This document shows, in pieces, positions 26,134-57,052 of a DNA stretch of 64,000 bases. The notes under the pieces were generated by a model. That model was not told the DNA's origin. It ran no database searches and saw only the letters and a program-made list of their open reading frames with translations. Each line of letters starts with the position of its first letter. The stretch's first letter is position 1. The DNA comes from a phage, in the sequence record PZ386975.1; one strand, 5' to 3'. The position numbers and the translations under genes were made by a program.

Positions 26134-26404
26134 AGAGAAGTGGGAGCTTTTACCATTAATCAGTGAAGGCGGTAATGGTTGTGAAATGTACATGATACGT
26201 GGTCATGTTCCAGAACCAATTGCACTTGAGATGGTAAACAACTTTACAGATGGCTCTTACAAAGACTTAGAGGAGCCAACTATAAAGCAGCAATGGGTAA
26301 AGCCTGTACCAGATAGCACAGGTAACTGTAGTGTACTTTATCACGTTGTAGACCCTGCAAAATGCAAATCTGCAATGGCAGTAACAAACGTAACTTTTGA
26401 TTGA
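26126..26404 (+). CDS. hypothetical protein
   Basis: ORF in co-directional block. Confidence 0.3.
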   Translation: MAKEKWELLPLISEGGNGCEMYMIRGHVPEPIALEMVNNFTDGSYKDLEEPTIKQQWVKPVPDSTGNCSVLYHVVDPAKCKSAMAVTNVTFD

Positions 26405-27297
26405 GAGGGAAAACTATGAAAACTGTTATTGAAGCCGTCGTCACCGCACAAGAGAAATTCTTCCACACAGAAAAATTTAATATCATTCAATTCCCATCTG
26501 GAGAAATTGGTGGAAACTTCTCTGAAGATTTTGTTAAGTTTACTGAGCGTAATGCTGGTAAGATTGATAATGTTATACTTACTGTACAGGGATATGACAA
26601 AGACACACTGTTTGCATTAGCTTTGGCTAAAGATGCCGTTGACAGTCTTGTTCCCCAGAAATCAGCGATGAAAACCGTTGTTTTCGGGTTCTTACCAAAT
26701 GCTCGATATGACCGCCACATGTTCAAAGGTGATGCAGCAGCACTGAAAGTCTTTGCCAACCTCGTTAATGCAATGGGTTTTGATGCAGTATGTGCTCTTG
26801 ACCCTCACAGTAATGTTGCAGAAAACTTATTTAAGTGCTTTCAGAGCATGAAGCAAAAAGATGTTGCAGCACACTTTGCAAGTGACCCACGCATTGATTT
26901 CTTGGTAGCCCCAGATGCAGGTGCAGCTAAGAAGACTGAAAATACCGCTAAAGAAGTGGATAAACCGTATATCACAATGTCTAAGGTACGTAACCTTAAG
27001 ACTGGTGAAATTACTGGTATGCGAATCCTTGATGATGTTGATTTGACAGATAAAACTGTCATGATTCTGGATGATATTTGTGATGGAGGCCGAACCTTCG
27101 TAGAGGCAGCGAAACACCTACGCGAAGCAGGTGCAAAACGTGTGGAACTATATGTAACACATGGAATTTTCTCTAAAGGTGTTGAAAACTTGCTTGACAA
27201 CGGAATCGACCATATCTACACTACAAACACTTTAGGTGAAGCTAAAGACCGTGGATTAACACATTATGGTCAAGTTACTGTAGCAAACATTGATTGA
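26401..27297 (+). CDS. ribose-phosphate pyrophosphokinase homologue (Prs-like; possibly ADP-ribose pyrophosphokinase of NARP1 type)
   Basis: DPHSNV (ribose-phosphate site-like) and ILDDICDGGRTF (PRPP-binding loop-like); 298 aa. Confidence 0.6.
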   Translation: MRGKTMKTVIEAVVTAQEKFFHTEKFNIIQFPSGEIGGNFSEDFVKFTERNAGKIDNVILTVQGYDKDTLFALALAKDAVDSLVPQKSAMKTVVFGFLPNARYDRHMFKGDAAALKVFANLVNAMGFDAVCALDPHSNVAENLFKCFQSMKQKDVAAHFASDPRIDFLVAPDAGAAKKTENTAKEVDKPYITMSKVRNLKTGEITGMRILDDVDLTDKTVMILDDICDGGRTFVEAAKHLREAGAKRVELYVTHGIFSKGVENLLDNGIDHIYTTNTLGEAKDRGLTHYGQVTVANID

Positions 27298-27306
27298 AAC
27301 TTTATA

Positions 27307-27330
27307 GGGGGCTTCAAAGCCCCATTTTGA
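27307..27330 (+). terminator. hairpin, weak terminator
   Basis: gggggcttcaaagcccc then attttg. Confidence 0.35.
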
Positions 27331-27343
27331 GAGAGATTAAAAG

Positions 27344-29125
27344 ATGACTAAATCACTTTATGCAGTACCAGCAGGTTTAAATGCGGACGCTTACAAGTCT
27401 GGCCATATATACCAGTACCCCAGTGCAACAGAGTACTTGATGTTCAACCTGACACCACGTAGCGACAAATGGTTTAACAGCCCTTTGGCAATTGACGGTG
27501 TAGTGGCTTTTGGTATTCAACGTTTTGTTAAAGATTACTTGATAGACCACTGGAATGCCACTTTCTTTGAACGTGATAAAAAAGAAGCAATTGACGAAAT
27601 CTTAGAAGTCATGAATGGTGTTCTGGGTAAAGATGCTATCGGTCGGGAGCATTGGGAAGCACTTCACGACTTAGGTTATCTACCAGTTGGAGTATACGCT
27701 GTAGAAGAAGGCACAGTTGTCCCTATGCGTGTTCCGATGATTGTTTTCCAGAACACTGTTTCAGGTTTCCATTGGGTAGCAGGTTATCTAGAAGATGCTT
27801 TCTCTGCTGAGATTTGGAAGGCTTGTACCATTGCAACTATTGCATTGCACTACAAACGTATCTGTAAGAAGTGGGCTGACCTTACTTGTGATAACGACTT
27901 ACATTTACCTTATCAGTGCCATGACTTTGCTATGCGTGGTATGTCCGGCTTTACTGATGACGCATTTAACGCTGTAGGCCACTTAACCAGCTTTAAAGGG
28001 ACTGATAGCTTCCCTGCTGTATATACAGCTAAACGCATCTACGGACAGTCTTACCCAGTCTCTGATATTGGTGGTTCTGTACCAGCCACTGAACACTCTG
28101 TAATGTGTGCAAACATTGCTTGGGAAGGTGGTAATGAATTGATTGAAGAAGAAAGACGCTTTAAAGGTGAATTACAAACCTTCCGTCGCTTCTTAACAGA
28201 AACTTATCCAACTGGTATTGCAAGTGTTGTTTCAGATACTTATAACTTCTGGAGAACTGTGTCAGAAATCTTACCAGCACTCCGTAAAGAAATTATGGAA
28301 CGTGATGGTAAACTGGTGATTCGTCCTGACTCTGGAGACCCTGTACATATTGTCACAGGCTATAAAGCAATCCACTTAGAGTGTGCTAAGAAGGCTTATT
28401 ACGAGCACCTGAGCAAGCTGGAAGCTAGTGACACAATGCTGAATGCTGTTCTGAACATGAAGCTTGAAAACATCAACTATGGTATTGCTGGATGGCTACT
28501 GTCAGAAGGCTACGAAATGGTTGTTGACAGAGAAGACTTTGAAGTTGCGGATACAGTATTGCTAAAGAACGCTTATATGGTTGGTTCTGCAAACGTTGTA
28601 ACACGCCCTGTAGCAGAGATTGATGGAGCTATTAAGACACTGTACAACATCTTTGGAGGGACTATCAACTCTAAAGGGTTTAAGGTACTGGATGAGCACA
28701 TCGGCCTTATCTATGGTGACTCTATCACACTGGAACGTGCAAACGAAATCCTGAAGCGCCTGTATGAAATGGGTTTTGCAAGCTCTAACGTAGTGTTTGG
28801 CGTAGGCTCTTACACTTACCAGTACATGACTCGTGACACCTTTGCATTTGCTGTCAAAGCAACTCTTGCAAGCATTGGTGGTAAAGAGGTTATGCTTGCA
28901 AAAGACCCTAAAACAGATAGTGGTGTTAAGAAGTCTGCTTTTGGTGGTGTAGCACCTATGTGGGATGGTGATAAGTTGAAAGCTGTAGATGGCTATGGAT
29001 TCCAGAGCTTTGCAGATGCACTTGAACATCCAGCTTGTGCTTTACGTTTAGTCTTTAGTGACTCTGAGCAGTACGGTTACACATCTCTTGGTGATATTCG
29101 AAATAATATTGACAAGCAGCTTTAA
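27344..29125 (+). CDS. nicotinamide phosphoribosyltransferase homologue (NAMPT/NadV-like; possibly Namat of NARP1 type)
   Basis: 593 aa with NAMPT-like architecture; adjacent to Prs homologue; no NMNAT gene seen nearby. Confidence 0.6.
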   Translation: MTKSLYAVPAGLNADAYKSGHIYQYPSATEYLMFNLTPRSDKWFNSPLAIDGVVAFGIQRFVKDYLIDHWNATFFERDKKEAIDEILEVMNGVLGKDAIGREHWEALHDLGYLPVGVYAVEEGTVVPMRVPMIVFQNTVSGFHWVAGYLEDAFSAEIWKACTIATIALHYKRICKKWADLTCDNDLHLPYQCHDFAMRGMSGFTDDAFNAVGHLTSFKGTDSFPAVYTAKRIYGQSYPVSDIGGSVPATEHSVMCANIAWEGGNELIEEERRFKGELQTFRRFLTETYPTGIASVVSDTYNFWRTVSEILPALRKEIMERDGKLVIRPDSGDPVHIVTGYKAIHLECAKKAYYEHLSKLEASDTMLNAVLNMKLENINYGIAGWLLSEGYEMVVDREDFEVADTVLLKNAYMVGSANVVTRPVAEIDGAIKTLYNIFGGTINSKGFKVLDEHIGLIYGDSITLERANEILKRLYEMGFASSNVVFGVGSYTYQYMTRDTFAFAVKATLASIGGKEVMLAKDPKTDSGVKKSAFGGVAPMWDGDKLKAVDGYGFQSFADALEHPACALRLVFSDSEQYGYTSLGDIRNNIDKQL

Positions 29126-29700: not shown

Positions 29701-32067
29701 ATGCGCATGGTAAACGACCACGCAGAAGTGATTAAGAGTTCAACTTCTTTGGAGACATCTCAAGCACAGATTACAATGACACCTGAAATGTTCAGCCTTT
29801 TAAGTTCAGGTGTATACACATTTAAAGAAAGGGCAGTGATTCGTGAACTGTCATGTAACGCAGTAGATGCTCAAAAAGAAGCTGGAAAAGAGAACATCCC
29901 ATTCCATGTGCATTTACCTACTCGATTTGAGCCTTACTTTGAAGTCCGTGACTTTGGAACTGGTTTAACCCATGACAAAGTAATGAGTTTGTATCTGAAC
30001 TATGGGGCTTCTACGAAGAATGACTCCAATGATTACATTGGTGCAATGGGTATCGGCTCAAAATCCCCATTTGCAATTGCTCAGTCATTCACAGTATCTA
30101 GCTATGTTGATGGTGTTGTTAATAAGTACTCTGTTTACCTTGAGAATGGTATCCCTCAAGTAACTAAGCTTACTACCAACCCAACAAATGAACCCAATGG
30201 TTTAGCTGTACGTGTAGCAGTTGCTGACCATCGTATTTCAAAGTTCTTTGAAGAGGCTGGTCACGTATACTCATACTTTGCTGTAAAACCAGAAAGTAAC
30301 GTTGTATATGATGATGTATTAGCAGATATGAATGTCATTGCCCGTGAAGAGGGTGTTTATGATGCTATGATTCATAAGCAAAGCTGGCGTTCTAGTGGCA
30401 ACAGGACAGAGTTTAATGTGGTGATGGGTAATATTGCCTACCCAGTGAACATGGAAGCATTACTTGGTGATGATTTCTTCAAAGTCTTGCCAGAGTTTTT
30501 CCGTAGGAGCGTAGACCTTGTAAACATCTACATGCCTATTGGTTCAGTGGCTATTGCAGCTTCTCGTGAAGCATTGCAGATGAATGACACGACAAAAAAT
30601 GTTATCATTGAGGCTACTAAAAAGATAACTGAAGCCATTACAAAGGATGTTATCAAGAAAGTTAACAGCCAACCTACACTCATGGATGCTGCACAGGCTT
30701 ATGCTGAGTTACGTTTGAACTCACGAGAGATGTTTAATGCTGTGTGTCCAAAGCTAGAGTGGGGAGGCGTTAAGCTTGATTCTCTGGAAGAAGAATTACT
30801 AAACATTCGTCGTGGGATTATCTACGCAGAAGACGGCTCAGTCATTTATGAACGTGACGGTAAAGGTAATATCAAGGTTGATAGGAACGGGAACAATATC
30901 CCTAAAGTGGATTATCTTTATAATCCAGTTGCTTATGTCAAGTTCAACTCTTTAGAGAGTAAGATTCGTGCAACAGCACTTTCCTACACTCAAGAGGCAA
31001 GTATGTTCAATATCTTTGGTGCAATGCGTAAAAGCCAAATTGAACAGTTTTTGTTCGTGATTAATGACCGTCGTAATAAAAATGGCACTGAGAAGACTGT
31101 AGGCCGCAATCAGATTCTGCGTGGTGCATGTCGAGACTACGCTAACGAGTCAAGCCTGTTCCACAGATACAATGGTATTGTGTTTGTATTCTCGACTGAA
31201 AAAGAGTTAGATGATTTAATCAATCTGCATAAACTTGATAAAAGTTTGTTAAAGATTGTGAAGATGTCTGATAAGGAACACCATTATCAGCGTAAAGAAG
31301 CTGTGAGGGGTGTTGTAAAACTCTGGAAAGCTGTTCCATCAGAAACTAAAGCTTCATACACAGAGGTGTCAGAAGACCTAGATACAATTGAAGAACCCCA
31401 GCTTTATATCAAGGCAGTAGGCGACACAGTTGATGGTGAATGTTTTTGCTCATCCCCAGAAGATGTAGCTAAAACAATTGCTAATGTTATAGGAAAAACA
31501 GTCTATGTTTTCCGAAAAGCAAATTGGAAAAAGATACCAGAAGACTGGATTGAAGTAGATGAGAAGCTATTGAATGACAGCTTAACTGATGTTCACTGGA
31601 TTAATCATAACAGGTATATGACACGTATCTATATGAATGGTGTCCTTGACCTTACAAGTAGTTGGATTATTGCCAGAAACTTTACGTTTAATAACAAGAA
31701 GATTTCTCGCGGGTATTGCTATTCACGAGATACAAACAAAACCATCTTCTTAGAAGGTAATGAGAATGCTGTTGAGGCAATGTTTGGTAAGATTCAGTAT
31801 GTGGCTGCACCGTTTGCATACACTTACACTATCAGTGTTCTTCAGGATTTGAAGTCATGCCTTGACAATGATACAAAACTGTACAAAAAGATTAAGAAAG
31901 CGGGTGACCGCATGGTTATCAAACTGACAAACTACCTTTCAAAAAGAAAACAAGAAAACTTCTTGCTTTCCCATTTAGATTGGAATAAAGTGTCACCCAT
32001 CGAAGTGAGTAAGTTCTTAGGCTTTGATGTGAAGTGTGTTCCAGAAGGGACTACAATTTACGATTAA
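29701..32067 (+). CDS. rIIA: rIIA-like protein with GHKL ATPase domain
   Basis: GHKL N-box ELSCNAVDA, G1 box DFGTGL, G2 box GAMGIGSKS; size and position before an rIIB-like gene. Confidence 0.6.
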   Translation: MRMVNDHAEVIKSSTSLETSQAQITMTPEMFSLLSSGVYTFKERAVIRELSCNAVDAQKEAGKENIPFHVHLPTRFEPYFEVRDFGTGLTHDKVMSLYLNYGASTKNDSNDYIGAMGIGSKSPFAIAQSFTVSSYVDGVVNKYSVYLENGIPQVTKLTTNPTNEPNGLAVRVAVADHRISKFFEEAGHVYSYFAVKPESNVVYDDVLADMNVIAREEGVYDAMIHKQSWRSSGNRTEFNVVMGNIAYPVNMEALLGDDFFKVLPEFFRRSVDLVNIYMPIGSVAIAASREALQMNDTTKNVIIEATKKITEAITKDVIKKVNSQPTLMDAAQAYAELRLNSREMFNAVCPKLEWGGVKLDSLEEELLNIRRGIIYAEDGSVIYERDGKGNIKVDRNGNNIPKVDYLYNPVAYVKFNSLESKIRATALSYTQEASMFNIFGAMRKSQIEQFLFVINDRRNKNGTEKTVGRNQILRGACRDYANESSLFHRYNGIVFVFSTEKELDDLINLHKLDKSLLKIVKMSDKEHHYQRKEAVRGVVKLWKAVPSETKASYTEVSEDLDTIEEPQLYIKAVGDTVDGECFCSSPEDVAKTIANVIGKTVYVFRKANWKKIPEDWIEVDEKLLNDSLTDVHWINHNRYMTRIYMNGVLDLTSSWIIARNFTFNNKKISRGYCYSRDTNKTIFLEGNENAVEAMFGKIQYVAAPFAYTYTISVLQDLKSCLDNDTKLYKKIKKAGDRMVIKLTNYLSKRKQENFLLSHLDWNKVSPIEVSKFLGFDVKCVPEGTTIYD

Positions 32068-32146: not shown

Positions 32147-33256
32147 ATGACTATTAAAACTAAAGCACAGATTGACGCAGAAATTTACAAACTGGTTAAA
32201 GAGGGTAAGCTGACTAAAACAGCTATTGCACAGAAATTTAACACCTCAACCCGTTCAGTCGGTCGTGCTGTAGAGCGTCATGAAGCAACCTTAAAAGGTA
32301 AGAAAAAGGTAGCTTCTAAACCAGCTACGAAGACTTTGAAGCAAGTTGCTAAATCAGTTAAAAAGAAAGCTGGAAAACCAGTTGAAAATGTTGTTAAAGA
32401 GACTGTACAAAAGGCTCCGGTAAATAAACTACACGAAGCTATGCAGAATGGTAACCAGATTGAGTATATGATTACTGGCGATTCTGTTATCATGACTTTC
32501 GGTGCAGATTCTGAAATCGTTGAATCTACCCATCCGAACTACAAAGAAATCGTAATGGCTGTTGTATCCGGTGAGTATAAGAAAGCTTTCGAACTGATGA
32601 ACATTCGTAAATCTATCGAAAACTTCACTCAGGGTGCTATCACCATCAAAGGTGACAAGTTATTCTACGGTACTGTTGAGATGCGTTCTACTCTGGTTGA
32701 CCGTATTCTTCACATGATGAAGACTGGAGATAAAGGTTTTGAACGCCTTGTGATGTTCTTCGAAAAACTGATGGAAAACCCATCTAAAGACTCTGTAGAA
32801 CAACTTTGGGGCTTTGTATCTCACCTTGATGTTGAAATTGATGAAGAAGGCTACATCATTGGTTGGAAGAAAGTCTCTACTCGTGAAGGCAAGCTGGTTG
32901 ACTCCCACACCTACAAAGTACCTAATGATTTGGGTAACATTGTAGAAATGCCACGTTGGATGGTTGATAACAACCGTAACGTGACTTGCTCTCAAGGTCT
33001 TCATGTTGGTGCTTGGGACTATGTTCGTTGCTTCTCAGGTGATACAATCCTGAAGGTTCGTGTCCATCCACGAGATGTTGTATCTGTTCCAACTGATTAC
33101 AACGATATGAAGATGCGTTCGTCTCGTTATGAAGTTGCAGCAATCGTTGATAATCAACGTAAAGTGCTGAAAGCATGGGATGGCAAGACTGAAGCTTTGC
33201 ATGTCATCGTTGGCACTGCTGGAGAACTTATCTCCCAACGTAAACGTGAAATCTAA
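32147..33256 (+). CDS. rIIB: rIIB-like protein
   Basis: Follows rIIA-like gene; N-terminal helix-turn-helix-like segment recalled as similar to T4 rIIB start. Confidence 0.4.
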   Translation: MTIKTKAQIDAEIYKLVKEGKLTKTAIAQKFNTSTRSVGRAVERHEATLKGKKKVASKPATKTLKQVAKSVKKKAGKPVENVVKETVQKAPVNKLHEAMQNGNQIEYMITGDSVIMTFGADSEIVESTHPNYKEIVMAVVSGEYKKAFELMNIRKSIENFTQGAITIKGDKLFYGTVEMRSTLVDRILHMMKTGDKGFERLVMFFEKLMENPSKDSVEQLWGFVSHLDVEIDEEGYIIGWKKVSTREGKLVDSHTYKVPNDLGNIVEMPRWMVDNNRNVTCSQGLHVGAWDYVRCFSGDTILKVRVHPRDVVSVPTDYNDMKMRSSRYEVAAIVDNQRKVLKAWDGKTEALHVIVGTAGELISQRKREI

Positions 33257-33357: not shown

Positions 33358-33906
33358 ATGAAGAAATTGATTCTAGGTTTGTGCTTAATGTTTACAGCAC
33401 ACTTATCTTATGCAGTTGACTGCCCAGAGCTATCAATTAGCCAAAAAGTAAACATGTTAAAAGCTTACCAGTATGGTGAGAATAACATGGGTAAAGGTTG
33501 GGGTATCACTCTAGCTGCTATAGCCTTACAAGAGTCAGAGTTAGGCCTGAATGTAGAGAATAAAAAGACACATGATTATGGTATCTTCCAGAATCACTTG
33601 AAGACTGTTGTAAAGCGTAACAAAATCAGTCCTAATGTGGCTAAAAAGAAACTCTTAAAAGACTTTGACTATGCTGCGAAGGAAACGCACAAAGAGCTTG
33701 AGTTTTGGACAAAGGTGCATGGTCAGCCAAAGTCAAAGAAGACTTTACAAAAAGTTTTAGCATCTTATAATGCTGGGTATTCGTACAAAATCCCTAAAGC
33801 TAAGAAATATTCTCAAGATGTCTATAACAACATGAAAGCGATTGCTCAATGTGAATTTGCAACAAACATTTCTAAGGTAAATCATGAAAAAATTAAGAAA
33901 GTCTGA
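33358..33906 (+). CDS. secreted lytic transglycosylase-like (SLT domain) protein
   Basis: Signal peptide MKKLILGLCLMFTAHLSYA; SLT-like ALQESELG...DYGIFQ. Confidence 0.45.
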   Translation: MKKLILGLCLMFTAHLSYAVDCPELSISQKVNMLKAYQYGENNMGKGWGITLAAIALQESELGLNVENKKTHDYGIFQNHLKTVVKRNKISPNVAKKKLLKDFDYAAKETHKELEFWTKVHGQPKSKKTLQKVLASYNAGYSYKIPKAKKYSQDVYNNMKAIAQCEFATNISKVNHEKIKKV

Positions 33907-34579
33907 TGAAGTATTGTGCCATGCTTATGACTTACATCCTCATGAGTTAGGTCTTGATTCCTGTGTATGGACTCCAGAACAGTGCAGGGATTTTGAAGAC
34001 ACAGCAAGAGAAGTTGTATGTTCACTTGAAGAGTTCCACACAACAGAGCCAATTGTGAATGTTGTAGATAAAGAGACTGGACAAGCTATAGGTGTAAGTC
34101 GTGACAGCTTATTCATAGTCAATAAAGACCTTGTAGAAAAAGGTAACCTCATCTTAGCAGATATTGATGGTGTTCTTACAAATTTTAATCACGAAGATTG
34201 TTCAACGGAATTGACTGATGGTTCATTTTCACAGTACACTAATCTTCTTGACTCTGTAAGAGCAAAACCAACGTATGTTTTCAATATCATTGATGCAATT
34301 GCTAATCATGCTGCCGTTGGACTCTTGACAGCGAGAGGCGAATCTCAGAGAATACCTACTGAGATGTTTTTAAGGCATAACACAGAGCATGATTATATGC
34401 TTTTTATGCGTGGTTTTGGAACTAACTCTATAAGTGCAGAAAGTTTGAAAGTGAGGATGATTCAGTCTTGCATTCTGCCTTACTTTAATATAGTATGTTT
34501 TATAGAAGATACAGAGAAGAATGTGCAGAAGGTGAACAGAATCCTTCCACACATCAAAACCATGTTAGTTAAACATTGA
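33884..34579 (+). CDS. HAD-superfamily phosphatase-like (5'-deoxyribonucleotidase-like)
   Basis: ILADIDGVLTNF resembles HAD motif I DxDGVL. Confidence 0.4.
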   Translation: MKKLRKSDEVLCHAYDLHPHELGLDSCVWTPEQCRDFEDTAREVVCSLEEFHTTEPIVNVVDKETGQAIGVSRDSLFIVNKDLVEKGNLILADIDGVLTNFNHEDCSTELTDGSFSQYTNLLDSVRAKPTYVFNIIDAIANHAAVGLLTARGESQRIPTEMFLRHNTEHDYMLFMRGFGTNSISAESLKVRMIQSCILPYFNIVCFIEDTEKNVQKVNRILPHIKTMLVKH

Positions 34580-36212: not shown

Positions 36213-36420
36213 AAAGACCCGCAAGATTGTACGTTCAGCAGTATTCATAGGGAGAGATGAAGTCGTCCCGTTTGCAGGGGAAGATGTGCTAACTTATAAG
36301 AAGGGTTTAAAACGTAAATTCAGTGACCGTTTACGCGGCTTCATCTCTGAACCATTAGAAGATTTCAAAAGTCGCTGTGGCGAAGGCATCATCATTCAAG
36401 AGGCAATTATTCATGGCTGA
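36187..36420 (+). CDS. hypothetical protein
   Basis: ORF in co-directional block. Confidence 0.3.
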   Translation: MKVILARDKKTRKIVRSAVFIGRDEVVPFAGEDVLTYKKGLKRKFSDRLRGFISEPLEDFKSRCGEGIIIQEAIIHG

Positions 36421-36613
36421 TTTCTGCAAAGATTGTGCTATCGAAATGTTTGGACGTGATACAGGTGACTTAAAAGGTCTCATCACTGAAGATGACTTTA
36501 AAGCTGGCTATGCAATGCCAGTAATCTGTGAAGGTTGTGGGTGCATCTGGGTAGACCACGAAGGGCAACGTGTAAAACCTTCAGAAGATAAAGAATCTTG
36601 GGAGAGATGTTAA
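36377..36613 (+). CDS. small zinc-binding protein
   Basis: CKDC...CEGCGC cysteine clusters. Confidence 0.35.
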   Translation: MAKASSFKRQLFMADFCKDCAIEMFGRDTGDLKGLITEDDFKAGYAMPVICEGCGCIWVDHEGQRVKPSEDKESWERC

Positions 36614-37399
36614 ATGGGTATTGTAAAAATCATCAATGGTGATATCTTTGCAGCATTTGATAAAGGTAAGTTTGACGTCATTGGTCACGGTTGCAACTGT
36701 ATGAATTTAATGGGTGCAGGTATCGCTGACAAGATTTCTAAACTTTACCCAAAAGCATATGAGACTGATACAGAAGTTTATCTATATGCAGGCGGTATAG
36801 GCCACAAACCCTGTGAAAATTTACTGGGTAATTTCTCCGTAGCACGTTTAAAACAAGGTCGTATAGCTAACCTTTACACTCAGCTTAAGACTGGTAAAGA
36901 TGCCAGATACAGTGCTTTAGAGTCATCTTTGAAACAGCTTAACAGATACTGTGAAGTCAACCAGTTGAAGAAGGTTGGTCTACCTATGATTGGTGCAGGT
37001 ATCGGTGGGCTAGACCCTCAAGCCGTCACAGTTATCATTAATCAGGTGATGAAGAGTGTAGATGTGTATCTTTATGTCTACGAAGGAGAGATGTACCACA
37101 AGTTACGCTCAGGTTGGAAGAACTACTGTGAACCAGAATACTTTGCAGGTGTAGTAGTGTTCACTAATGATGCAGTTACCCTCTTCAGACGAAGAAAAGG
37201 TAAGATACATCAAAGTAACCCTCCGGTTGAAAAGATGTCTCTAAGTAACGCTCTAGTTACCCACCTGTCGAAGAGCAGTCACAGGATTGCAGTAACATTT
37301 GGCAGTGATGCAGATGCTTACATCTATGCAAGAACTGATGAGGATATCGAGACGGTTTTCTCTTCACCAGAGCTTACCTTCTTAGACGCAAAGAACTAA
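36614..37399 (+). CDS. macrodomain protein (TARG1/OARD1/DarG-like ADP-ribose processing)
   Basis: GDIFAAFDKGKFDVIGHGCNCMNLMGAGIA and LPMIGAGIGGL resemble the TARG1-type macrodomain (GDLF...AHCISEDCRMGAGIA; PRIGCGL) as recalled. Confidence 0.55.
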   Translation: MGIVKIINGDIFAAFDKGKFDVIGHGCNCMNLMGAGIADKISKLYPKAYETDTEVYLYAGGIGHKPCENLLGNFSVARLKQGRIANLYTQLKTGKDARYSALESSLKQLNRYCEVNQLKKVGLPMIGAGIGGLDPQAVTVIINQVMKSVDVYLYVYEGEMYHKLRSGWKNYCEPEYFAGVVVFTNDAVTLFRRRKGKIHQSNPPVEKMSLSNALVTHLSKSSHRIAVTFGSDADAYIYARTDEDIETVFSSPELTFLDAKN

Positions 37400-37472
37400 G
37401 AAACTTCGTAGTATATTCACAATAGACTAAGCCTTTCTTATCTGGTAAATTTTTCAGGTAAGGAGGGCTTTT

Positions 37473-37655
37473 TCATTTCAGAATTGTGCAGGTAGAGTTC
37501 TGTAGAGAAATCTATAGAGAAAATTTTGAACTCCAAAGAGAAAATTCATTTTCAAACTGTGCAGGTAATCTCCAAAGAGCTTTTCCATTTTCAAAACGTG
37601 CAGACCCCACTCAGGTCGGGCAAGAAAAATCATTTTAGAATTGTGCAGGTAGGTG
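37473..37655 (+). repeat. four direct repeats of about 22 bp (CATTTTCARAAYTGTGCAGGTA)
   Basis: Copies near 37476, 37546, 37585, 37632 in an ORF-free gap upstream of the small-gene array. Confidence 0.6.
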
Positions 37656-37906: not shown

Positions 37907-38113
37907 ATGCTTTACAGTCGTGAATTGATGGTTACAACTAACGTTAACACAAAGGTAAAACGTTTTTACATGCAAATTTGTGGCGTATGGTCTAGAATAT
38001 CAGAGGCTGACTATTGCAACTATGTAGGAACAGCTATAGAATCTAATTGCTACCTTACAAGAAACACTAAGAACTTTATAAGACAGACAGCAATTTACTA
38101 CTACGATAAATAA
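37907..38113 (+). CDS. array gene 1, hypothetical (68 aa)
   Basis: Own promoter and RBS. Confidence 0.4.
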   Translation: MLYSRELMVTTNVNTKVKRFYMQICGVWSRISEADYCNYVGTAIESNCYLTRNTKNFIRQTAIYYYDK

Positions 38114-38203
38114 AAAGTACTTTACAGGGGGCTTATAAGGCTGTACAGTAAGCCCCAGATAAAGAGCTTTACCACATTAACCCTTAAACTAGGAGATTCT
38201 AAA
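38113..38203 (+). promoter_or_regulatory. type A promoter-hairpin cassette
   Basis: AAGTACTTTACA, stem GGGGCTTA/TAAGCCCC with variable loop, AGATAAAGAGCTTTACCAC, RBS AGGAGA, ATG. Confidence 0.55.
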
Positions 38204-38587
38204 ATGGCATATCGCGCACCTAAATTCATCAATAAAGACAACTTTCGCAACGCACTGGAGAAGTCACTTGATGAGAATTTTAAAGGCAACGTTATTGTTG
38301 TTCACTCGTTTAATTTCAAGTATGATATCAACGGGAATAAAATCAACCATTACACGGCAACCATGATAGATGGTACACTATCAAGTGAAAAAGCCATTTT
38401 GCATGCACTTGCTGGACGTGGTAAAAACCTGATAAAATGTGATAAGAGACGTTATCAGGGTGGCGCATATGGTTATGATGATGCTGTTTATCATCTTGAA
38501 AATATGGGCTATCAAGTAGAAAAAGCTGGAGCGTCTCAAATAATCGGTAGTGATGGTTACGTAACTATCTTCAAAATTAACAAATAA
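38204..38587 (+). CDS. array gene 2, hypothetical (127 aa)
   Basis: Preceded by type A cassette; ends ...KINK. Confidence 0.45.
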   Translation: MAYRAPKFINKDNFRNALEKSLDENFKGNVIVVHSFNFKYDINGNKINHYTATMIDGTLSSEKAILHALAGRGKNLIKCDKRRYQGGAYGYDDAVYHLENMGYQVEKAGASQIIGSDGYVTIFKINK

Positions 38588-38672
38588 AGTACTTTACAAG
38601 GGGCTTATAGTTCGATAAAGTAAGCCCCAGATAAAGAGCTTTACCACTCAATCCTAAATTGGAGAACTAAAA
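38588..38672 (+). promoter_or_regulatory. type A promoter-hairpin cassette
   Basis: Near-identical to cassette at 41437-41522. Confidence 0.55.
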
Positions 38673-38966
38673 ATGGCTATTATCAAAAACGTTGTAATTG
38701 CTGCAAAAACTCGTGATGACGCTCGCGTTATGGCTAAAAAGTTATGCGGGAAAGTGGTTGACAACGGAAAACAATCTGCTGTAAGGTGGGGCGTGAAGGC
38801 TGATAAACAGTTGAAGTTAAAAAATTCACCGATAAACCTTTTTACATGTGTAAACACTATCGGGAAGACAACTGTATACACGAAAAAGGCATACATTAGA
38901 CGCGTAGCATTAACATCCCCCATTCGTACAATGAGAAGTTATGCAAAGCTGAAAATTAACAAATAA
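38673..38966 (+). CDS. array gene 3, hypothetical basic protein (97 aa)
   Basis: Preceded by type A cassette; ends ...KINK. Confidence 0.45.
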   Translation: MAIIKNVVIAAKTRDDARVMAKKLCGKVVDNGKQSAVRWGVKADKQLKLKNSPINLFTCVNTIGKTTVYTKKAYIRRVALTSPIRTMRSYAKLKINK

Positions 38967-55052: not shown

Positions 55053-55129
55053 CTCTGTTTAGCTCAGCTTGGTAGAGCGTTCCGTTTGGGGCGGTAAGGC
55101 CGGAGGTTCAAGTCCTCCAACAGAGACCA
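55053..55129 (+). tRNA. tRNA-Pro (TGG), tentative
   Basis: 7 bp acceptor ctctgtt/aacagag, T-arm ggaggttcaagtcctcc, encoded CCA. Confidence 0.6.
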
Positions 55130-55146
55130 AATTTAAAGGGGTTACT

Positions 55147-55503
55147 ATGAGATTTTTAAAAGAATGTCCAGTTCATGGTTTAACTGAACATAGCATTCAT
55201 AAGAATGGTAACGCCGGTAATAGAGTAAATTGTCTAAAATGTTGTGCATTAAGGACAAAACTTAGAGAGGATGCCAATAGGGAGAAAGCATACAAGTTTT
55301 ATGGCGATAGTTGCAAAATTTGTGGCTATAATAAATGTAAAAATGCTTTAGAATGGCATCACCTTAACCCAAACGAAAAAGAGAATACACCATCAAAAAT
55401 TATGGGTGCATCTTGGGAAAAGGTTAAAAAAGAACTTGATAAATGTGTTTTGCTCTGTGCTAATTGCCACAGAGAGGTTCATAGTGGAATTACAACGGTT
55501 TAA
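55147..55503 (+). CDS. HNH endonuclease inside tRNA cluster
   Basis: CKICG...EWHHLNP...CANCHREVH; start moved to MRFLKE because annotated start overlaps a tRNA. Confidence 0.55.
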   Translation: MRFLKECPVHGLTEHSIHKNGNAGNRVNCLKCCALRTKLREDANREKAYKFYGDSCKICGYNKCKNALEWHHLNPNEKENTPSKIMGASWEKVKKELDKCVLLCANCHREVHSGITTV

Positions 55504-55504
55504 T

Positions 55505-55579
55505 GTCGTAGAAGGCAAATGGTTAGCCACCTGACCTTCAATCAGTTGCTCGCAGGTTCGAATCCTGTCTACGACACCA
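55505..55579 (+). tRNA. tRNA, anticodon possibly TTC (Glu)
   Basis: Acceptor gtcgtag/ctacgac, T-arm gcaggttcgaatcctgt, CCA. Confidence 0.5.
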
Positions 55580-55586
55580 GTTTTGA

Positions 55587-55659
55587 CAGAAGACCAATTA
55601 CAGCAAACTTAATCTTATTCATCTGAAGGTAAATCGGACAAAGAAGAGATTTGGTCTGG
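55587..55659 (+). ncRNA. conserved stem element A (CAGAAGACCA ... TTGGTCTGG)
   Basis: Member of a 4-copy family with covarying closing stem and conserved TACAGCAA. Confidence 0.35.
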
Positions 55660-55670
55660 TCATTAAGAAT

Positions 55671-55747
55671 TGCGGGTATAGAGAAAGGGCGTCTCACATG
55701 TCTCATTAGCATGGTATCGGCAGGTTCGACTCCTGCACCCGCCTCCA
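55671..55747 (+). tRNA. tRNA-Met-like (CAT), non-canonical 1:72 pair
   Basis: Anticodon loop ctcatta, T-arm gcaggttcgactcctgc, CCA; acceptor pairing imperfect. Confidence 0.4.
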
Positions 55748-55753
55748 ATTTTG

Positions 55754-55813
55754 CAGAAGACCGTATTCAGCAACAAACTACTTTTTGCGGATAAAAGAAA
55801 AAACACGGTCTGG
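55754..55813 (+). ncRNA. conserved stem element B (CAGAAGACCG ... CGGTCTGG)
   Basis: Covarying G-C in place of A-T relative to element A. Confidence 0.35.
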
Positions 55814-55824
55814 CAATGTATTAA

Positions 55825-55901
55825 GGTTAGGAAGCACATAAGGTATGTGCGGTCGCCTGTTAAGCGAATGGCACAGGGTTCGAATCCCTGACTAACCGCC
55901 A
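55825..55901 (+). tRNA. tRNA-Asn (GTT)
   Basis: Acceptor ggttagg/actaacc, anticodon loop ctgttaa, T-arm cagggttcgaatccctg, CCA. Confidence 0.6.
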
Positions 55902-55970
55902 AATTTAGGAGAGAAGCGATTGCTCACCGATTTGTAAGGTGCAAGTCCTTAGCCTGAATAGAAATTAAAT

Positions 55971-56058
55971 GTGTCGTTATCCCGTAGATGGTAGCGGTGG
56001 GGACTGTAAATCCCTTGTCATTGAGACTCGGTAGGTTCGACTCCTACACGGCACACCA
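55971..56058 (+). tRNA. tRNA-Tyr (GTA), long variable arm
   Basis: Acceptor gtgtcgt/acggcac, anticodon loop ctgtaaa, T-arm gtaggttcgactcctac, CCA. Confidence 0.6.
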
Positions 56059-56063
56059 ATAAA

Positions 56064-56141
56064 GGTTATGTAGTTTAATTTGGTTAAAATACTCCCCTGT
56101 CACGGGAGATGATGAGGGTTCAAATCCCTTCGTAACCGCCA
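56064..56141 (+). tRNA. tRNA-Asp (GTC)
   Basis: Acceptor ggttatg/cgtaacc, anticodon stem-loop ctccc ctgtcac gggag, CCA. Confidence 0.65.
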
Positions 56142-56202
56142 ATTTTGAGAGGGCTATTTAGCCCCTCCCTTAAAGGGTTCTTACGAGTATCCTTTAAAGG
56201 AG

Positions 56203-56278
56203 CAGAAGACCAAATACAGCAAGAACGTATGAAAATTTCAAGCCAATTTAATTTTGAAAAATTTAAAACTTGGTCTGG
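56203..56278 (+). ncRNA. conserved stem element C (CAGAAGACCA ... TTGGTCTGG)
   Basis: Same family as A, B, D. Confidence 0.35.
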
Positions 56279-56291
56279 CTCAACAAATTTA

Positions 56292-56422
56292 CAGAAGACC
56301 GTTTACAGCAAAACTTAAACAATCTATTTCTCGGTAAAGAAAAGGCGAAGGTTCGATTCCTTCACTCGGCAGATGTCGAGTTGGTGTAATGGTAGCACTT
56401 AAGATGATAAACAACGGTCTGG
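56292..56422 (+). ncRNA. candidate Y-RNA-like ncRNA (element D) with permuted tRNA-like module
   Basis: Closing stem CAGAAGACCG/CGGTCTGG; internal T-arm gaaggttcgattccttc, acceptor-like hairpin actcggc-agat-gtcgagt, then D-arm-like ggtgtaatggtagcac; no conventional 5' acceptor partner. Confidence 0.4.
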
Positions 56423-56424
56423 TA

Positions 56425-56566
56425 ATTATCTTTGTAGATAAGTTATTAAGCTTACCTGTGAGTATGCGACCACAAAGGGTGAAAGGGTAAATTCTAGATT
56501 TAAACCCAAAAAGGCACATCGCTACAGACCTTAAGCAAGTCTGGGTAGCTTATCTACAAAGATAAT
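56425..56566 (+). repeat. 18 bp perfect inverted repeat enclosing about 106 nt
   Basis: attatctttgtagataag at 56425-56442 and its exact reverse complement at 56549-56566. Confidence 0.6.
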
Positions 56567-56571
56567 TTAAT

Positions 56572-56647
56572 GGAAGTGTAGCAGAATGGTGATGCGGCAG
56601 ACTTTTAATCTGACAGGCGATGGGTTCGAATCCCTCCACTTCTACCA
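56572..56647 (+). tRNA. tRNA-Lys (TTT)
   Basis: Acceptor ggaagtg/cacttct, anticodon loop cttttaa, T-loop ttcgaat, CCA. Confidence 0.55.
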
Positions 56648-56651
56648 AAAT

Positions 56652-56728
56652 GGTTCAGTCGCAGATAAGGTAATTCAAGGGTCTCATAAGACCTATGAAT
56701 GTGGGTTCGATTCCCATCTGAACCTCCA
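56652..56728 (+). tRNA. tRNA-Met or Ile2 (CAT)
   Basis: Exact 7 bp acceptor ggttcag/ctgaacc, anticodon loop ctcataa, CCA. Confidence 0.6.
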
Positions 56729-56730
56729 AT

Positions 56731-56805
56731 TGTGGGTTAGCATAAATGGTAATGCAAACGGCTGATAACCGTTAGAAGAGGGTTCGATACCCTCACCTAC
56801 AACCA
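56731..56805 (+). tRNA. tRNA-Ile (GAT)
   Basis: Anticodon stem-loop aacgg ctgataa ccgtt, T-arm gagggttcgataccctc, CCA. Confidence 0.65.
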
Positions 56806-56820
56806 ATTTCAATAAAGTTG

Positions 56821-56849
56821 TTGACATTGAGATGTGACTACTTTATAGT
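56821..56849 (+). promoter_or_regulatory. sigma70-like promoter inside tRNA cluster
   Basis: TTGACA, 17 nt spacer, TATAGT. Confidence 0.55.
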
Positions 56850-57052
56850 AACCTTAGTTTTCGTTGCGTAGCGTCTATTTTGCAAATTTAAAATAAATGC
56901 AAACGACAATGTTTTTCTGGCAGTAGCTTGATAGGCTAAACACCAGTGAGGTCTTCCAATCCCTCATCAAAGAATTTGGCGTACTAGCCCACGGTATGAT
57001 TAATAAAGTGGGCATCTTTAAGGGCTTTCTAAGAGAGTCTTTAAAGATTAAT

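What the first reader, a model, noticed from the sequence alone, without database searches (positions are those of the whole stretch)
36614..37399. TARG1/DarG-like macrodomain protein
The N-terminal 170 aa match the TARG1-type macrodomain signature (GD-hydrophobic-F, then HGCNC-MGAGIA, then P-MIGAGIGGL). Macrodomains of this type remove ADP-ribose from protein or DNA; DarG uses one to reverse DarT DNA ADP-ribosylation, and DarTG is an anti-phage system. A phage-encoded copy could counter ADP-ribosylating defenses, and it sits in the same gene block as the candidate NAD+ pathway.
Basis: partly seen in the sequence, partly recalled or inferred. Interest (0 to 1): 0.6.

Follow-up and report, generated by a model that had tools for sequence, protein, structure and literature searches.

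The report
Phage macrodomain enzyme, Tk.4/AdfM type
This Felix O1-like phage gene encodes an ADP-ribose-processing macrodomain, most like the phage T4 protein that protects T4 from the DarTG2 defence, fused to a fast-evolving extra domain with no known relatives; the family is already known but this two-domain version is untested.

Summary
The window is a Felixounavirus, about 95% identical to known phages. Residues 1-157 are a confident macrodomain of the TARG1/DarG/Poa1p class (Pfam, PDB profile, AlphaFold plus Foldseek).

It is not a TARG1- or DarG-type enzyme in its catalytic residues. TARG1 K84 / DarG K80 is an invariant Gln (Q90), and TARG1 D125 is Gly. It fails the NCBIfam DarG model (47.5 bits against a cut-off of 250).

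It belongs to a phage-wide family (PHROG 335) with two studied members:
- T4 Tk.4/AdfM, whose knockout sensitises T4 to DarTG2.
- Vibrio phage Gary Adpp, an ADPR-1''-phosphate phosphatase that extends the NARP1 NAD+ pathway against aRES.

The window protein is closest to Tk.4 (35% identity, E=2e-24). It shares Tk.4's discrete characters: no loop insertion after the Gln, and a GAGIGG loop. Every NARP1-adjacent Adpp that I aligned has the insertion and a different loop.

Best guess: an anti-DarTG2 DNA de-ADP-ribosylase (0.45). Main rival: an Adpp acting in trans for the phage's own NARP1 (0.25).

Residues 158-261 form an orphan, faster-evolving domain found only in Ounavirinae. The gene is also a site of allele replacement. 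Overall this is a new variant of a known kind, of moderate interest.

The parts
36600..36606 (+). Shine-Dalgarno-like GGGAGAG, 7 nt before the ATG. The upstream ORF's TAA stop (36611-36613) abuts the ATG, so translational coupling is likely.
   Evidence: Read directly from the sequence.
36614..37399 (+). CDS of 261 aa: a two-domain macrodomain protein, annotated in relatives as 'putative phosphatase', 'macro domain-containing protein' or 'O-acetyl-ADP-ribose deacetylase'.
   Evidence: Purifying selection across 6 Felixounavirus alleles.
36614..37084 (+). Macrodomain, residues 1-157 (ALC1/TARG1-like class, Tk.4/AdfM subtype).
   Evidence: Pfam, PDB profile, AlphaFold2 plus Foldseek, BLASTP to T4 Tk.4. 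dN/dS is about 0.07.
36638..36649 (+). G9-D10-I11-F12 motif. By analogy with other macrodomains, the Asp contacts the adenine (inferred).
   Evidence: Sequence; G9 is nearly invariant in alignment A1.
36686..36727 (+). Loop 1, H25-G-C-N-C-M-N-L-M-G-A-G-I-A38. H25 corresponds to Gary Adpp H24 and Poa1p H23. N28 corresponds to DarG N22.
   Evidence: H25, G26, N28, C29, M33, G36 and A38 are invariant. Alignments. The H24A mutant primers are in the aRES preprint supplement.
36869..36883 (+). N86-L-Y-T-Q90, invariant. Q90 occupies the position of the catalytic Lys of TARG1 (K84) and DarG (K80). No loop insertion follows it, unlike Adpp and Poa1p.
36983..37015 (+). Loop 2 (diphosphate-binding loop), P124-M-I-G-A-G-I-G-G-L-D134. 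G131 sits where TARG1 has D125.
   Evidence: Residues 128-130 are the only low-confidence segment of the model, which would fit a loop that orders only on ligand binding (inferred).
37085..37396 (+). C-terminal orphan domain, residues 158-261: about six beta strands plus short helices. It is found only in Ounavirinae macro proteins.
37429..37480 (+). Terminator-like hairpin (17-pair stem) with a T tract, 30 nt after the stop codon. It probably ends the transcription unit.
   Evidence: This is a consensus match only; function is inferred.
26401..29125 (+). Context only: the NARP1 NAD+ reconstitution pair. Adps (PRPS-like) is at 26401-27297, with an uncertain start, and Namat (NAMPT-like) is at 27344-29125.
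   Evidence: Pfam; annotations of relatives. NARP1 was defined in the Felixounavirus Bas63, genes 79-80 (preprint 10.1101/2024.02.11.579819).

Best explanation
The gene encodes a counter-defence enzyme.

Macrodomain (residues 1-157). It binds the ADP-ribose moiety through loop 1 (HGCNC...MGAGIA) and loop 2 (PMIGAGIGGLD). It hydrolyses whatever is attached to C1'' of the distal ribose. The likely catalytic residues are His25, Asn28 and Gln90, rather than the Lys/Asp pair of TARG1.

Most likely physiological substrate. This is ADP-ribose placed on thymidines of single-stranded phage DNA by DarT2-type toxins. The protein would then act like T4 Tk.4/AdfM and let the phage replicate in DarTG2-carrying hosts.

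C-terminal domain (residues 158-261). This is an Ounavirinae-specific add-on that evolves faster than the macrodomain. I infer that it supplies targeting or partner binding (DNA, replisome or a host defence protein).

Shown here: the macrodomain fold, family membership, the conserved active-site residues, closest similarity to Tk.4, and purifying selection.

Inferred: enzymatic activity, DNA-ADP-ribose as the substrate, the anti-DarTG2 role, and any role for the C-terminal domain.
For: Fold and family:
- establish the macrodomain fold and family.

Closest characterised homologue is T4 Tk.4 (T4p110):
- BLASTP to Tk.4 gives 82.4 bits, E=2e-24, 35% identity.
- The comparisons are 66.6 bits (Acinetobacter Adpp), 53.1 bits (Gary Adpp) and 46.6 bits (TARG1).
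- A tk.4 knockout sensitises T4 to DarTG2 (preprint 10.1101/2025.11.20.689424).

Shared discrete characters with Tk.4:
- HGCNC, NLYTQ with no insertion after Q, and G-A-G-I-G loop 2.
- These are absent from the NARP1-adjacent macros. The strings IGAGIG, IGAGIA and IGCGIG occur 0 times in Table S1 of the aRES preprint. All 11 aligned Table S1 sequences, and the further Table S1 lineages read by eye, carry a 3-7 residue insertion after Q.
- Glycohydrolases (TARG1, DarG, PhiKZ AdfM) lack the insertion. The bona fide phosphatase Poa1p has it (the Poa1p sequence was verified).

Conservation:
- H25, N28 and N86-Q90 are invariant over 28 homologues.
- Macrodomain dN/dS is about 0.07.

Signs of an arms-race locus:
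- The C-terminal domain has dN/dS of about 0.30.
- In phages otherwise about 94% identical, an allele only 41% identical replaces the gene, with a breakpoint inside it.
Against: - No experiment exists on any Ounavirinae macro protein.
- The Tk.4 result is genetic only and comes from a preprint. Removal of ADP-ribose from DNA by a Gln-type macrodomain has not been shown biochemically.
- DarG K80 is essential for DarG activity, and this protein has Gln at that position.
- The NJ phylogeny does not resolve whether the Ounavirinae clade groups with Tk.4 or with the Adpps; deep-node bootstrap support is below 40%.
- The phage carries NARP1, which would make an Adpp activity useful. Macrodomains of this class are often promiscuous in vitro (aRES preprint discussion), so the two roles are not exclusive.
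Confidence: 0.45

Rival explanations
1. It is an unlinked Adpp. The macrodomain dephosphorylates ADP-ribose-1''-phosphate, the product of RES-type NAD+ phosphorylases such as aRES, to ADP-ribose. The phage's own NARP1 enzymes (Adps and Namat, 26401-29125) then rebuild NAD+ from it. That would amount to a NARP1-AP pathway split across the genome. The same activity could also salvage ADPR-cyclic-phosphate-derived by-products of NARP1's ADPR-PP intermediate.
For: - It is homologous to the experimentally validated Gary Adpp (27% identity, E=1e-13) and to other NARP1-adjacent macros (29%, E=1e-18).
- The essential His (Gary H24) is conserved as H25.
- Gary Adpp behaves like the window protein in PDB searches, with TARG1 first and Poa1p weak.
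- The phage encodes NARP1, which was defined in its close relative Bas63.
- The gene order NARP1-rIIA-rIIB-...-macro is kept in divergent Ounavirinae whose macro proteins are only 31-45% identical.
- The Sorek screen looked only within two genes of NARP1, so it could not have found this gene. Table S1 lists no Escherichia or Salmonella phage.
- ADPR-cyclic-phosphate accumulates in Bas63 infection.
Against: - It is not adjacent to NARP1: 7.5 kb and 15 or more genes downstream, in a different apparent transcription unit.
- It lacks both discrete characters shared by the NARP1-adjacent macros aligned or read here (11 aligned, further Table S1 lineages by eye): the 3-7 residue insertion after the Gln, and the GxGL(A/G)GGD or MGCDRAGG loop. 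The one IMG/VR macro found between Namat and Adps homologues (L089/L090) also has them.
- Of about 45 insertion-less relatives outside Ounavirinae, none has both NARP1 genes within 10 kb.
- It is closer to T4 Tk.4. From my own knowledge, T4 has no NARP1; I did not test this here.
- The conserved synteny may simply reflect the shared Ounavirinae backbone.
Confidence: 0.25
2. It reverses some other ADP-ribosylation or clears another ADP-ribose derivative. Candidates are protein or RNA ADP-ribosylation by host defence ARTs (for example CmdTAC-type mRNA ADP-ribosylation), O-acetyl-ADP-ribose, or histidine-ADPR-type immune signals.
For: - TARG1-class macrodomains act on several C1''-linked substrates.
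- Relatives are annotated 'O-acetyl-ADP-ribose deacetylase'.
- The family is very widespread: 2851 phage records across many hosts. That suggests a general rather than single-system role.
- The orphan C-terminal domain could redirect specificity.
Against: - No homologue has been shown to do any of this in phage infection.
- The database annotations are transferred by similarity only.
- The two members with experimental data point to DarTG2 and to ADPR-1''-phosphate.
Confidence: 0.15
3. It is a non-catalytic ADP-ribose binder: a sponge for ADPR-derived signals, or a reader that recruits the C-terminal domain to ADP-ribosylated targets.
For: - The TARG1/DarG catalytic Lys is missing.
- Some macrodomains only bind.
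- Phage sponges for ADPR-based Thoeris signals are known; this comes from my own knowledge and from the abstract listed.
Against: - The invariant His25, Asn28 and Gln90 are shared with the catalytically active Gary Adpp, whose H24A mutant is inactive.
- Very strong purifying selection on the active-site region fits an enzyme.
Confidence: 0.05

Closest known systems
T4 Tk.4 = AdfM (anti-DarT factor, macrodomain), gene T4p110; preprint 10.1101/2025.11.20.689424
   Same: - Same phage macrodomain family (PHROG 335).
- 35% identity over 155 residues, E=2e-24.
- Same HGCNC, NLYTQ and GAGIG motifs, with no loop insertion and Gln at the TARG1/DarG Lys position.
- Also an orphan phage gene with no toxin partner.
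   Different: - Tk.4 is a single domain of 155 aa, whereas this protein has an extra 104-residue orphan domain.
- The host phage here also carries NARP1.
- The anti-DarTG2 phenotype has been shown only for T4.
Adpp, the ADPR-1''-phosphate phosphatase of NARP1-AP (Vibrio phage Gary KNV71_gp137); preprint 10.64898/2026.01.28.702374
   Same: - Same PHROG and the same His/Asn/Gln triad.
- 27-29% identity.
- Both occur in phages that carry Adps and Namat.
   Different: - Adpp genes lie within two genes of NARP1, whereas this one is 7.5 kb away.
- Adpps have a 3-7 residue insertion after the Gln and a GxGL(A/G)GGD or MGCDRAGG loop 2, which are absent here.
- Adpps are single-domain proteins.
PhiKZ gp104 AdfM and the bacterial DarG2 macrodomain (PDB 5M31, 5M3E, 5M3I); PMC13309987
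   Same: Same fold and class (target TM 0.77-0.83). The Asn equivalent to DarG N22 is kept as N28.
   Different: - DarG and PhiKZ AdfM have TVN...FPTK with a catalytic Lys and no His; here the motifs are HGCNC...LYTQ.
- On the NCBIfam DarG model, PhiKZ AdfM scores 137.8 bits and this protein 47.5.
- DarG's C-terminal DarT-binding domain is not matched.
Human TARG1/OARD1 (PDB 4J5R, 4J5S)
   Same: It is the best solved-structure match by sequence profile (E=2.3e-16) and by fold (E=4e-10, target TM 0.86). The GD-x-F, H...MGAGIA and P-x-IG-x-G motifs are shared.
   Different: The catalytic K84 and D125 are replaced by Q90 and G131. TARG1 is a single domain.
Yeast Poa1p (PDB 6LFQ), ADP-ribose-1''-phosphate phosphatase
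   Same: Same class (target TM 0.76; profile E=1e-11). It has an HSCNC motif, with H23 corresponding to H25.
   Different: Poa1p has Ser where this protein has Q90, plus a 7-residue insertion after that position. Its S30 and F152 correspond to L32 and G131 here.

Membership tests
Macro domain (Pfam PF01661) | Score above the Pfam gathering threshold. | tested here: met
   32.3 bits against a cut-off of 22, E=1e-7, residues 25-141.
Macro domain (Pfam PF01661) | Macrodomain alpha/beta/alpha fold. | tested here: met
   The AlphaFold2 model has pLDDT 90.8. Foldseek against PDB gives 241 hits at E<=1e-3, and the listed top 50 are all macrodomain-fold entries, led by TARG1, DarG and Poa1p.
TARG1 / ALC1-like macrodomain class | Closest solved relatives belong to this class. 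| tested here: met
   Family profile against PDB: TARG1 2.3e-16, DarG 7e-15 and 4.8e-13, SCO6735 6.3e-13, Poa1p 1e-11.
TARG1 (enzyme type) | Catalytic Lys84 and Asp125. | tested here: not met
   K84 aligns with the invariant Q90, and D125 aligns with G131.
DarG antitoxin (NCBIfam NF048014, PADLOC DarG) | Score at or above the equivalog cut-off. | tested here: not met
   47.5 bits against a cut-off of 250, and only profile positions 12-153 of 338 are matched. PADLOC DarG gives E=2.9e-13 for the macro part only.
DarG antitoxin | Catalytic Lys (Taq K80) in the FPTK motif. | tested here: not met
   The motif here is LYTQ, with Q90 at that position.
DarG antitoxin | C-terminal DarT-binding domain and an adjacent darT gene. 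| tested here: not met
   The C-terminal 104 residues match nothing in the DarG models or in PDB. The neighbouring genes are small phage ORFs of unknown function.
AdfM, T4 Tk.4 type | Significant homology to Tk.4 and shared subtype motifs (HGCNC, NLYTQ without insertion, GxGI(G/A)G). | tested here: met
   BLASTP gives 82.4 bits, E=2e-24. See also the motif tables.
AdfM, T4 Tk.4 type | Protects the phage from DarTG2. | not testable with these tools
   This needs a phage deletion mutant and plaque assays. It has been shown only for T4.
Adpp / NARP1-AP | Macro gene within two genes of Adps/Namat (the preprint's operational definition). | tested here: not met
   The gene starts 7.5 kb after the end of Namat, with 15 or more genes in between.
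Adpp / NARP1-AP | NARP1 present in the same genome. | tested here: met
   Adps-like and Namat-like genes lie at 26401-29125. They are orthologous to Bas63 genes 79-80.
Adpp / NARP1-AP | Conserved catalytic His (Gary H24). | tested here: met
   H25 is invariant in 28 homologues.
Adpp / NARP1-AP | Sequence signature shared by NARP1-adjacent macros: an insertion after the Gln, and a GxGL(A/G)GGD or MGCDRAGG loop. | tested here: not met
   The window protein has no insertion and has GAGIGG. The strings IGAGIG, IGAGIA and IGCGIG occur 0 times in Table S1. This signature is my own observation, not a published criterion.
Adpp / NARP1-AP | ADPR-1''-phosphate phosphatase activity. | not testable with these tools
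   This needs purified protein and LC-MS.

The most novel reading that the evidence does not exclude
The Ounavirinae protein could be a convergent, phage-made counterpart of a full DarG antitoxin. In this reading, a Gln-type macrodomain erases ADP-ribose, and the orphan, rapidly evolving C-terminal domain directly binds a host defence protein (DarT2 or another NAD+-using effector) or ssDNA. That would give two-pronged neutralisation. The same enzyme might additionally feed ADP-ribose released from DNA, or from ADPR-1''-phosphate, into the phage's NARP1. The allele replacement seen at this locus would then reflect an arms race with variable host toxins.
Probability: 0.15. Interest if true: 0.65.

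Novelty: new variant of a known kind. Interest (0 to 1): 0.4.

Why it matters
Felix O1-like phages are widely used as Salmonella and E. coli biocontrol and therapy candidates, and Bas63 is the model in which NARP1 was discovered.

If this protein is an AdfM, DarTG2 resistance can be predicted for a whole subfamily of about 260 sequenced phages. It would also show that a Gln-type macrodomain, not only the Lys-type DarG fold, can reverse DNA ADP-ribosylation.

If it is instead an Adpp acting in trans, the published NARP1-AP census (15% of NARP1 phages) is an underestimate, because it looked only at adjacent genes.

The insertion and loop signature that separates NARP1-adjacent macros from Tk.4-type macros is a testable specificity determinant.

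The orphan C-terminal domain is a candidate new targeting or inhibitor module.

Tried and rejected
- Phylogeny. I built a neighbour-joining tree with 500 bootstraps from 35 macrodomains. Only shallow clades are supported: DarG plus PhiKZ AdfM at 100%, and the two-domain clade at 75%. The position of the window clade relative to Tk.4 and the Adpps is unresolved. An earlier run had a distance-cap bug and a time-out, so I relied on discrete characters instead.
- Membership in DarG or TARG1. I rejected both on catalytic residues and on the NCBIfam cut-off.
- PDB ranking as a discriminator between Adpp and TARG1. I rejected it because the validated Gary Adpp itself ranks TARG1 first and Poa1p at E=0.79.
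- Synteny with NARP1 as independent evidence. It is conserved across Ounavirinae, but I treat it as weak because it may reflect the shared genome backbone.
- Literature. I found no paper on the Bas63 or Felix O1 macro protein. The Poa1p structure paper is not in the library.
- tRNA link via PNK and Tpt1-type ADPR-1''-phosphate production. I considered it and dropped it, because no 2'-phosphotransferase or 2H phosphoesterase was seen near the gene.
Full report
**What the window is.** The 2 kb around the finding is 93-95% identical to about 200 Felix O1-like phages of E. coli, Salmonella and Shigella (genus Felixounavirus). In those records the gene is annotated 'putative phosphatase', 'macro domain-containing protein', 'O-acetyl-ADP-ribose deacetylase' or 'hypothetical protein'.

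**Observation check.**
- The ORF 36614..37399 (+) encodes 261 aa.
- A GGGAGAG site lies 7 nt upstream, and the ATG directly follows the TAA of the preceding small ORF.
- A 17-pair hairpin with a T tract follows 30 nt after the stop codon (37429-37470). The gene is therefore probably the last one in a run of small same-strand genes.
Two details differ: the macrodomain ends near residue 157 rather than 170, and a second domain follows it.

**The N-terminal domain is a macrodomain of the TARG1/DarG/Poa1p class.**
- Pfam Macro passes its gathering score, and PHROG 335 'phosphatase' matches at E=1.8e-112.
- A profile of 28 homologues hits TARG1 (2.3e-16), M. tuberculosis and T. aquaticus DarG (7e-15, 4.8e-13), SCO6735 (6.3e-13) and yeast Poa1p (1e-11).
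- An AlphaFold2 model built on that alignment is confident (pLDDT 90.8, pTM 0.89).
- By Foldseek the model superposes on TARG1 (target TM 0.86), DarG (0.81-0.83) and Poa1p (0.76).

**It is not a TARG1- or DarG-type enzyme.**
- In every alignment the catalytic Lys of TARG1 (K84) and DarG (K80) falls on Q90. Q90 is part of an invariant N-L-Y-T-Q motif. TARG1 D125 falls on G131.
- The NCBIfam DarG equivalog gives 47.5 bits against a cut-off of 250, and only the macro part of that model is matched.
- By contrast, PhiKZ gp104 has the DarG motifs TVN...FPTK and scores 137.8 bits. PhiKZ gp104 is the chimallivirus 'AdfM' shown biochemically to remove DarT2 ADP-ribose from DNA (PMC13309987).

**The family has two studied phage members.**
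- *T4 Tk.4.* A transposon screen and a clean knockout showed that tk.4 is required for T4 to resist DarTG2, and the authors named it adfM. DNA de-ADP-ribosylation was inferred, not measured (preprint 10.1101/2025.11.20.689424). I confirmed that the T4 hit is tk.4 (T4p110, 'phosphatase, A1pp motif').
- *Adpp.* Osterman et al. found that RES-domain 'aRES' proteins split NAD+ into nicotinamide and ADP-ribose-1''-phosphate, which NARP1 cannot use. In 15% of NARP1 phages, a Macro protein within two genes of NARP1 dephosphorylates that product to ADP-ribose. The Vibrio phage Gary enzyme was purified and shown to do this (preprint 10.64898/2026.01.28.702374).
- Their Table S1 contains no Escherichia or Salmonella phage, so the Felixounavirus gene was outside their search.
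- NARP1 itself was discovered in the Felixounavirus Bas63. The window carries the orthologous pair at 26401-29125.

**Which of the two does the window protein resemble?**
- *Pairwise BLASTP bit scores.*

| Compared with | Bits | E-value |
|---|---|---|
| T4 Tk.4 | 82.4 | 2e-24 |
| Acinetobacter Adpp | 66.6 | 1e-18 |
| Gary Adpp | 53.1 | 1e-13 |
| TARG1 | 46.6 | 2e-11 |

- *Phylogeny.* A bootstrapped NJ tree does not resolve the deep branching, so I looked for discrete characters.
- *Tk.4-type characters.* The window protein, all two-domain Ounavirinae proteins, T4 Tk.4 and about 40 IMG/VR relatives share three features: HG(C/A)NC, N-x-Y-T-Q followed directly by x-x-(P/T)-G, and loop 2 G(A/C)GI(G/A)G.
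- *Adpp-type characters.* All 11 Table S1 sequences I aligned carry an insertion of 4-7 residues right after the Gln and a loop 2 of the form G(A/C)GL(A/G)GGD or MGCDRAGG. The further Table S1 lineages I read by eye in part 2 (Rheinheimera, Aeromonas, Pectobacterium) show a 3-4 residue insertion too. I read parts 1 and 2 of the four-part table in full and string-searched the whole file.
- *String search.* The strings IGAGIG, IGAGIA and IGCGIG occur 0 times in Table S1.
- *IMG/VR sample.* The only macro in my sample lying between Namat and Adps homologues (L089/L090) also has the insertion and the GAGLAGGD loop.
- *Reference enzymes.* The phosphatase Poa1p has a 7-residue insertion at the same place (sequence verified against 6LFQ). 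The glycohydrolases TARG1, DarG and PhiKZ AdfM have none.
- *Conclusion.* On these characters the window protein is of the Tk.4/AdfM subtype, not the Adpp subtype. That the insertion determines phosphatase specificity is my inference, not an established fact.

**Genomic context.**
- The macro gene starts 7.5 kb after the end of Namat. In between lie rIIA, rIIB, a PNK-like gene, spanins and small ORFs of unknown function.
- The order NARP1-rIIA-rIIB-...-macro is kept in distant Ounavirinae and related contigs whose macro proteins are only 31-45% identical. This may simply reflect the conserved backbone.
- Among about 45 insertion-less relatives outside Ounavirinae, none has both NARP1 genes within 10 kb. 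One has a weak Namat-like hit 9.6 kb away.

**The C-terminal domain (residues 158-261).**
- It is predicted with good confidence as a small beta-rich domain packed on the macrodomain.
- It does not match the DarT-binding part of the DarG models.
- It is translated sequence under purifying selection, but it evolves faster than the macrodomain. dN/dS is about 0.30 against 0.07 across six Felixounavirus alleles. Between the two allele groups it is only about 23% identical.

**Allele replacement.**
- Contigs L040 and L005 are about 94% identical to the window from 27.3 kb up to position 36756, which is codon 48 of the macro gene.
- Homology then collapses and returns only near 38.96 kb.
- The macro protein in those contigs is 41% identical overall, yet it keeps the same two-domain architecture and the same catalytic motifs.
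- Such cassette exchange, together with a fast-evolving accessory domain, is what one expects of a counter-defence locus. This is inference.

**Mechanism proposed.**
- The macrodomain binds ADP-ribose through loops 1 and 2 and hydrolyses the substituent on C1''. It would use His25, Asn28 and Gln90 rather than a Lys/Asp pair.
- The most likely physiological substrate is thymidine-linked ADP-ribose on phage ssDNA made by DarT2, as proposed for T4 Tk.4 (confidence 0.45).
- The main rival is dephosphorylation of ADPR-1''-phosphate to feed the phage's own NARP1 (0.25).
- The two roles are not exclusive, because the chemistry is at the same carbon and macrodomains of this class are promiscuous in vitro.
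- Smaller rivals are other ADP-ribosylated targets or ADPR derivatives (0.15) and a non-catalytic binder (0.05).
- That the protein is an active ADP-ribose-processing macrodomain used in phage-host conflict I hold at about 0.85.

**Novelty and interest.**
- The macrodomain identity is already in GenBank annotations, and the family's two functions were published in 2025-2026 preprints.
- What is new here:
  - the assignment of the Ounavirinae protein to the Tk.4 subtype on discrete characters;
  - the sequence signature separating NARP1-adjacent macros from Tk.4-type macros;
  - the orphan, faster-evolving C-terminal domain;
  - the allele-replacement breakpoint inside the gene.
- I rate it a new variant of a known kind, with interest 0.4.

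Noticed in passing
window 26401-29125 (+): This is the NARP1 NAD+ reconstitution pair: an Adps (PRPS-like, TTG/ATG start uncertain) and a Namat (NAMPT-like, 593 aa). It is orthologous to genes 79-80 of Bas63, the phage in which NARP1 was discovered. rIIA (29701-32067) and rIIB (32147-33256) follow directly.
   Followed up: partly
window ~36756 to ~38960; loci L040, L005: This is an allele-replacement cassette. Phages about 94% identical on both sides carry a macro allele only 41% identical, plus different downstream small genes. The left breakpoint lies inside the macro gene at about codon 48, within the conserved N-terminal motifs.
   Followed up: partly
window 38112-42513 (+), copies near 38112, 38584, 38963, 39580, 40637, 41433; a second family near 40314, 41178, 42429: These are repeated intergenic cassettes of about 60-100 nt between successive small + strand genes. 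Each has a GGGCTTA...TAAGCCCC hairpin followed by AGATAAAGAGCTTTACCAC and a ribosome-binding site, at 62-87% identity. A second family has the form GGGGAGG...CCTTCCC. They look like promoter or terminator modules that could mediate gene shuffling.
   Followed up: partly
window 37473-37652 (+): In the 500-nt gene-free stretch after the macro terminator there are three direct copies of a 23-nt motif, TCATTTTAGAATTGTGCAGGTAG. They overlap with 34-nt repeats. Two near-exact copies are found against 0 expected by chance. Their function is unknown.
   Followed up: partly
window 55053-60308 (+): A cluster of 24 tRNA genes that covers most amino acids. This is typical of Felix O1-like phages.
   Followed up: no
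window 33884-34579 (+) and 33358-33906 (+): A PNK-like protein (PHROG 3970 'polynucleotide kinase', HAD-type), overlapped at its start by an ORF with a weak transglycosylase SLT match. Both lie between rIIB and the macro gene.
   Followed up: no
window 36377-36613 (+): A small Cys-rich ORF (CxxC...CxGC; PHROG 2210, unknown function). Its stop codon abuts the macro start codon, so it may be co-translated with it.
   Followed up: no
phage records (e.g. vB_EcoM_ZYD PQ110661, Bacillus phage Tsamsa): Several unrelated large phages carry both a PHROG-335 macro gene and a Namat-like gene tens of kb apart. The published '15% of NARP1 phages have a Macro gene' figure counts only adjacent genes, so it may understate co-occurrence.
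   Followed up: no
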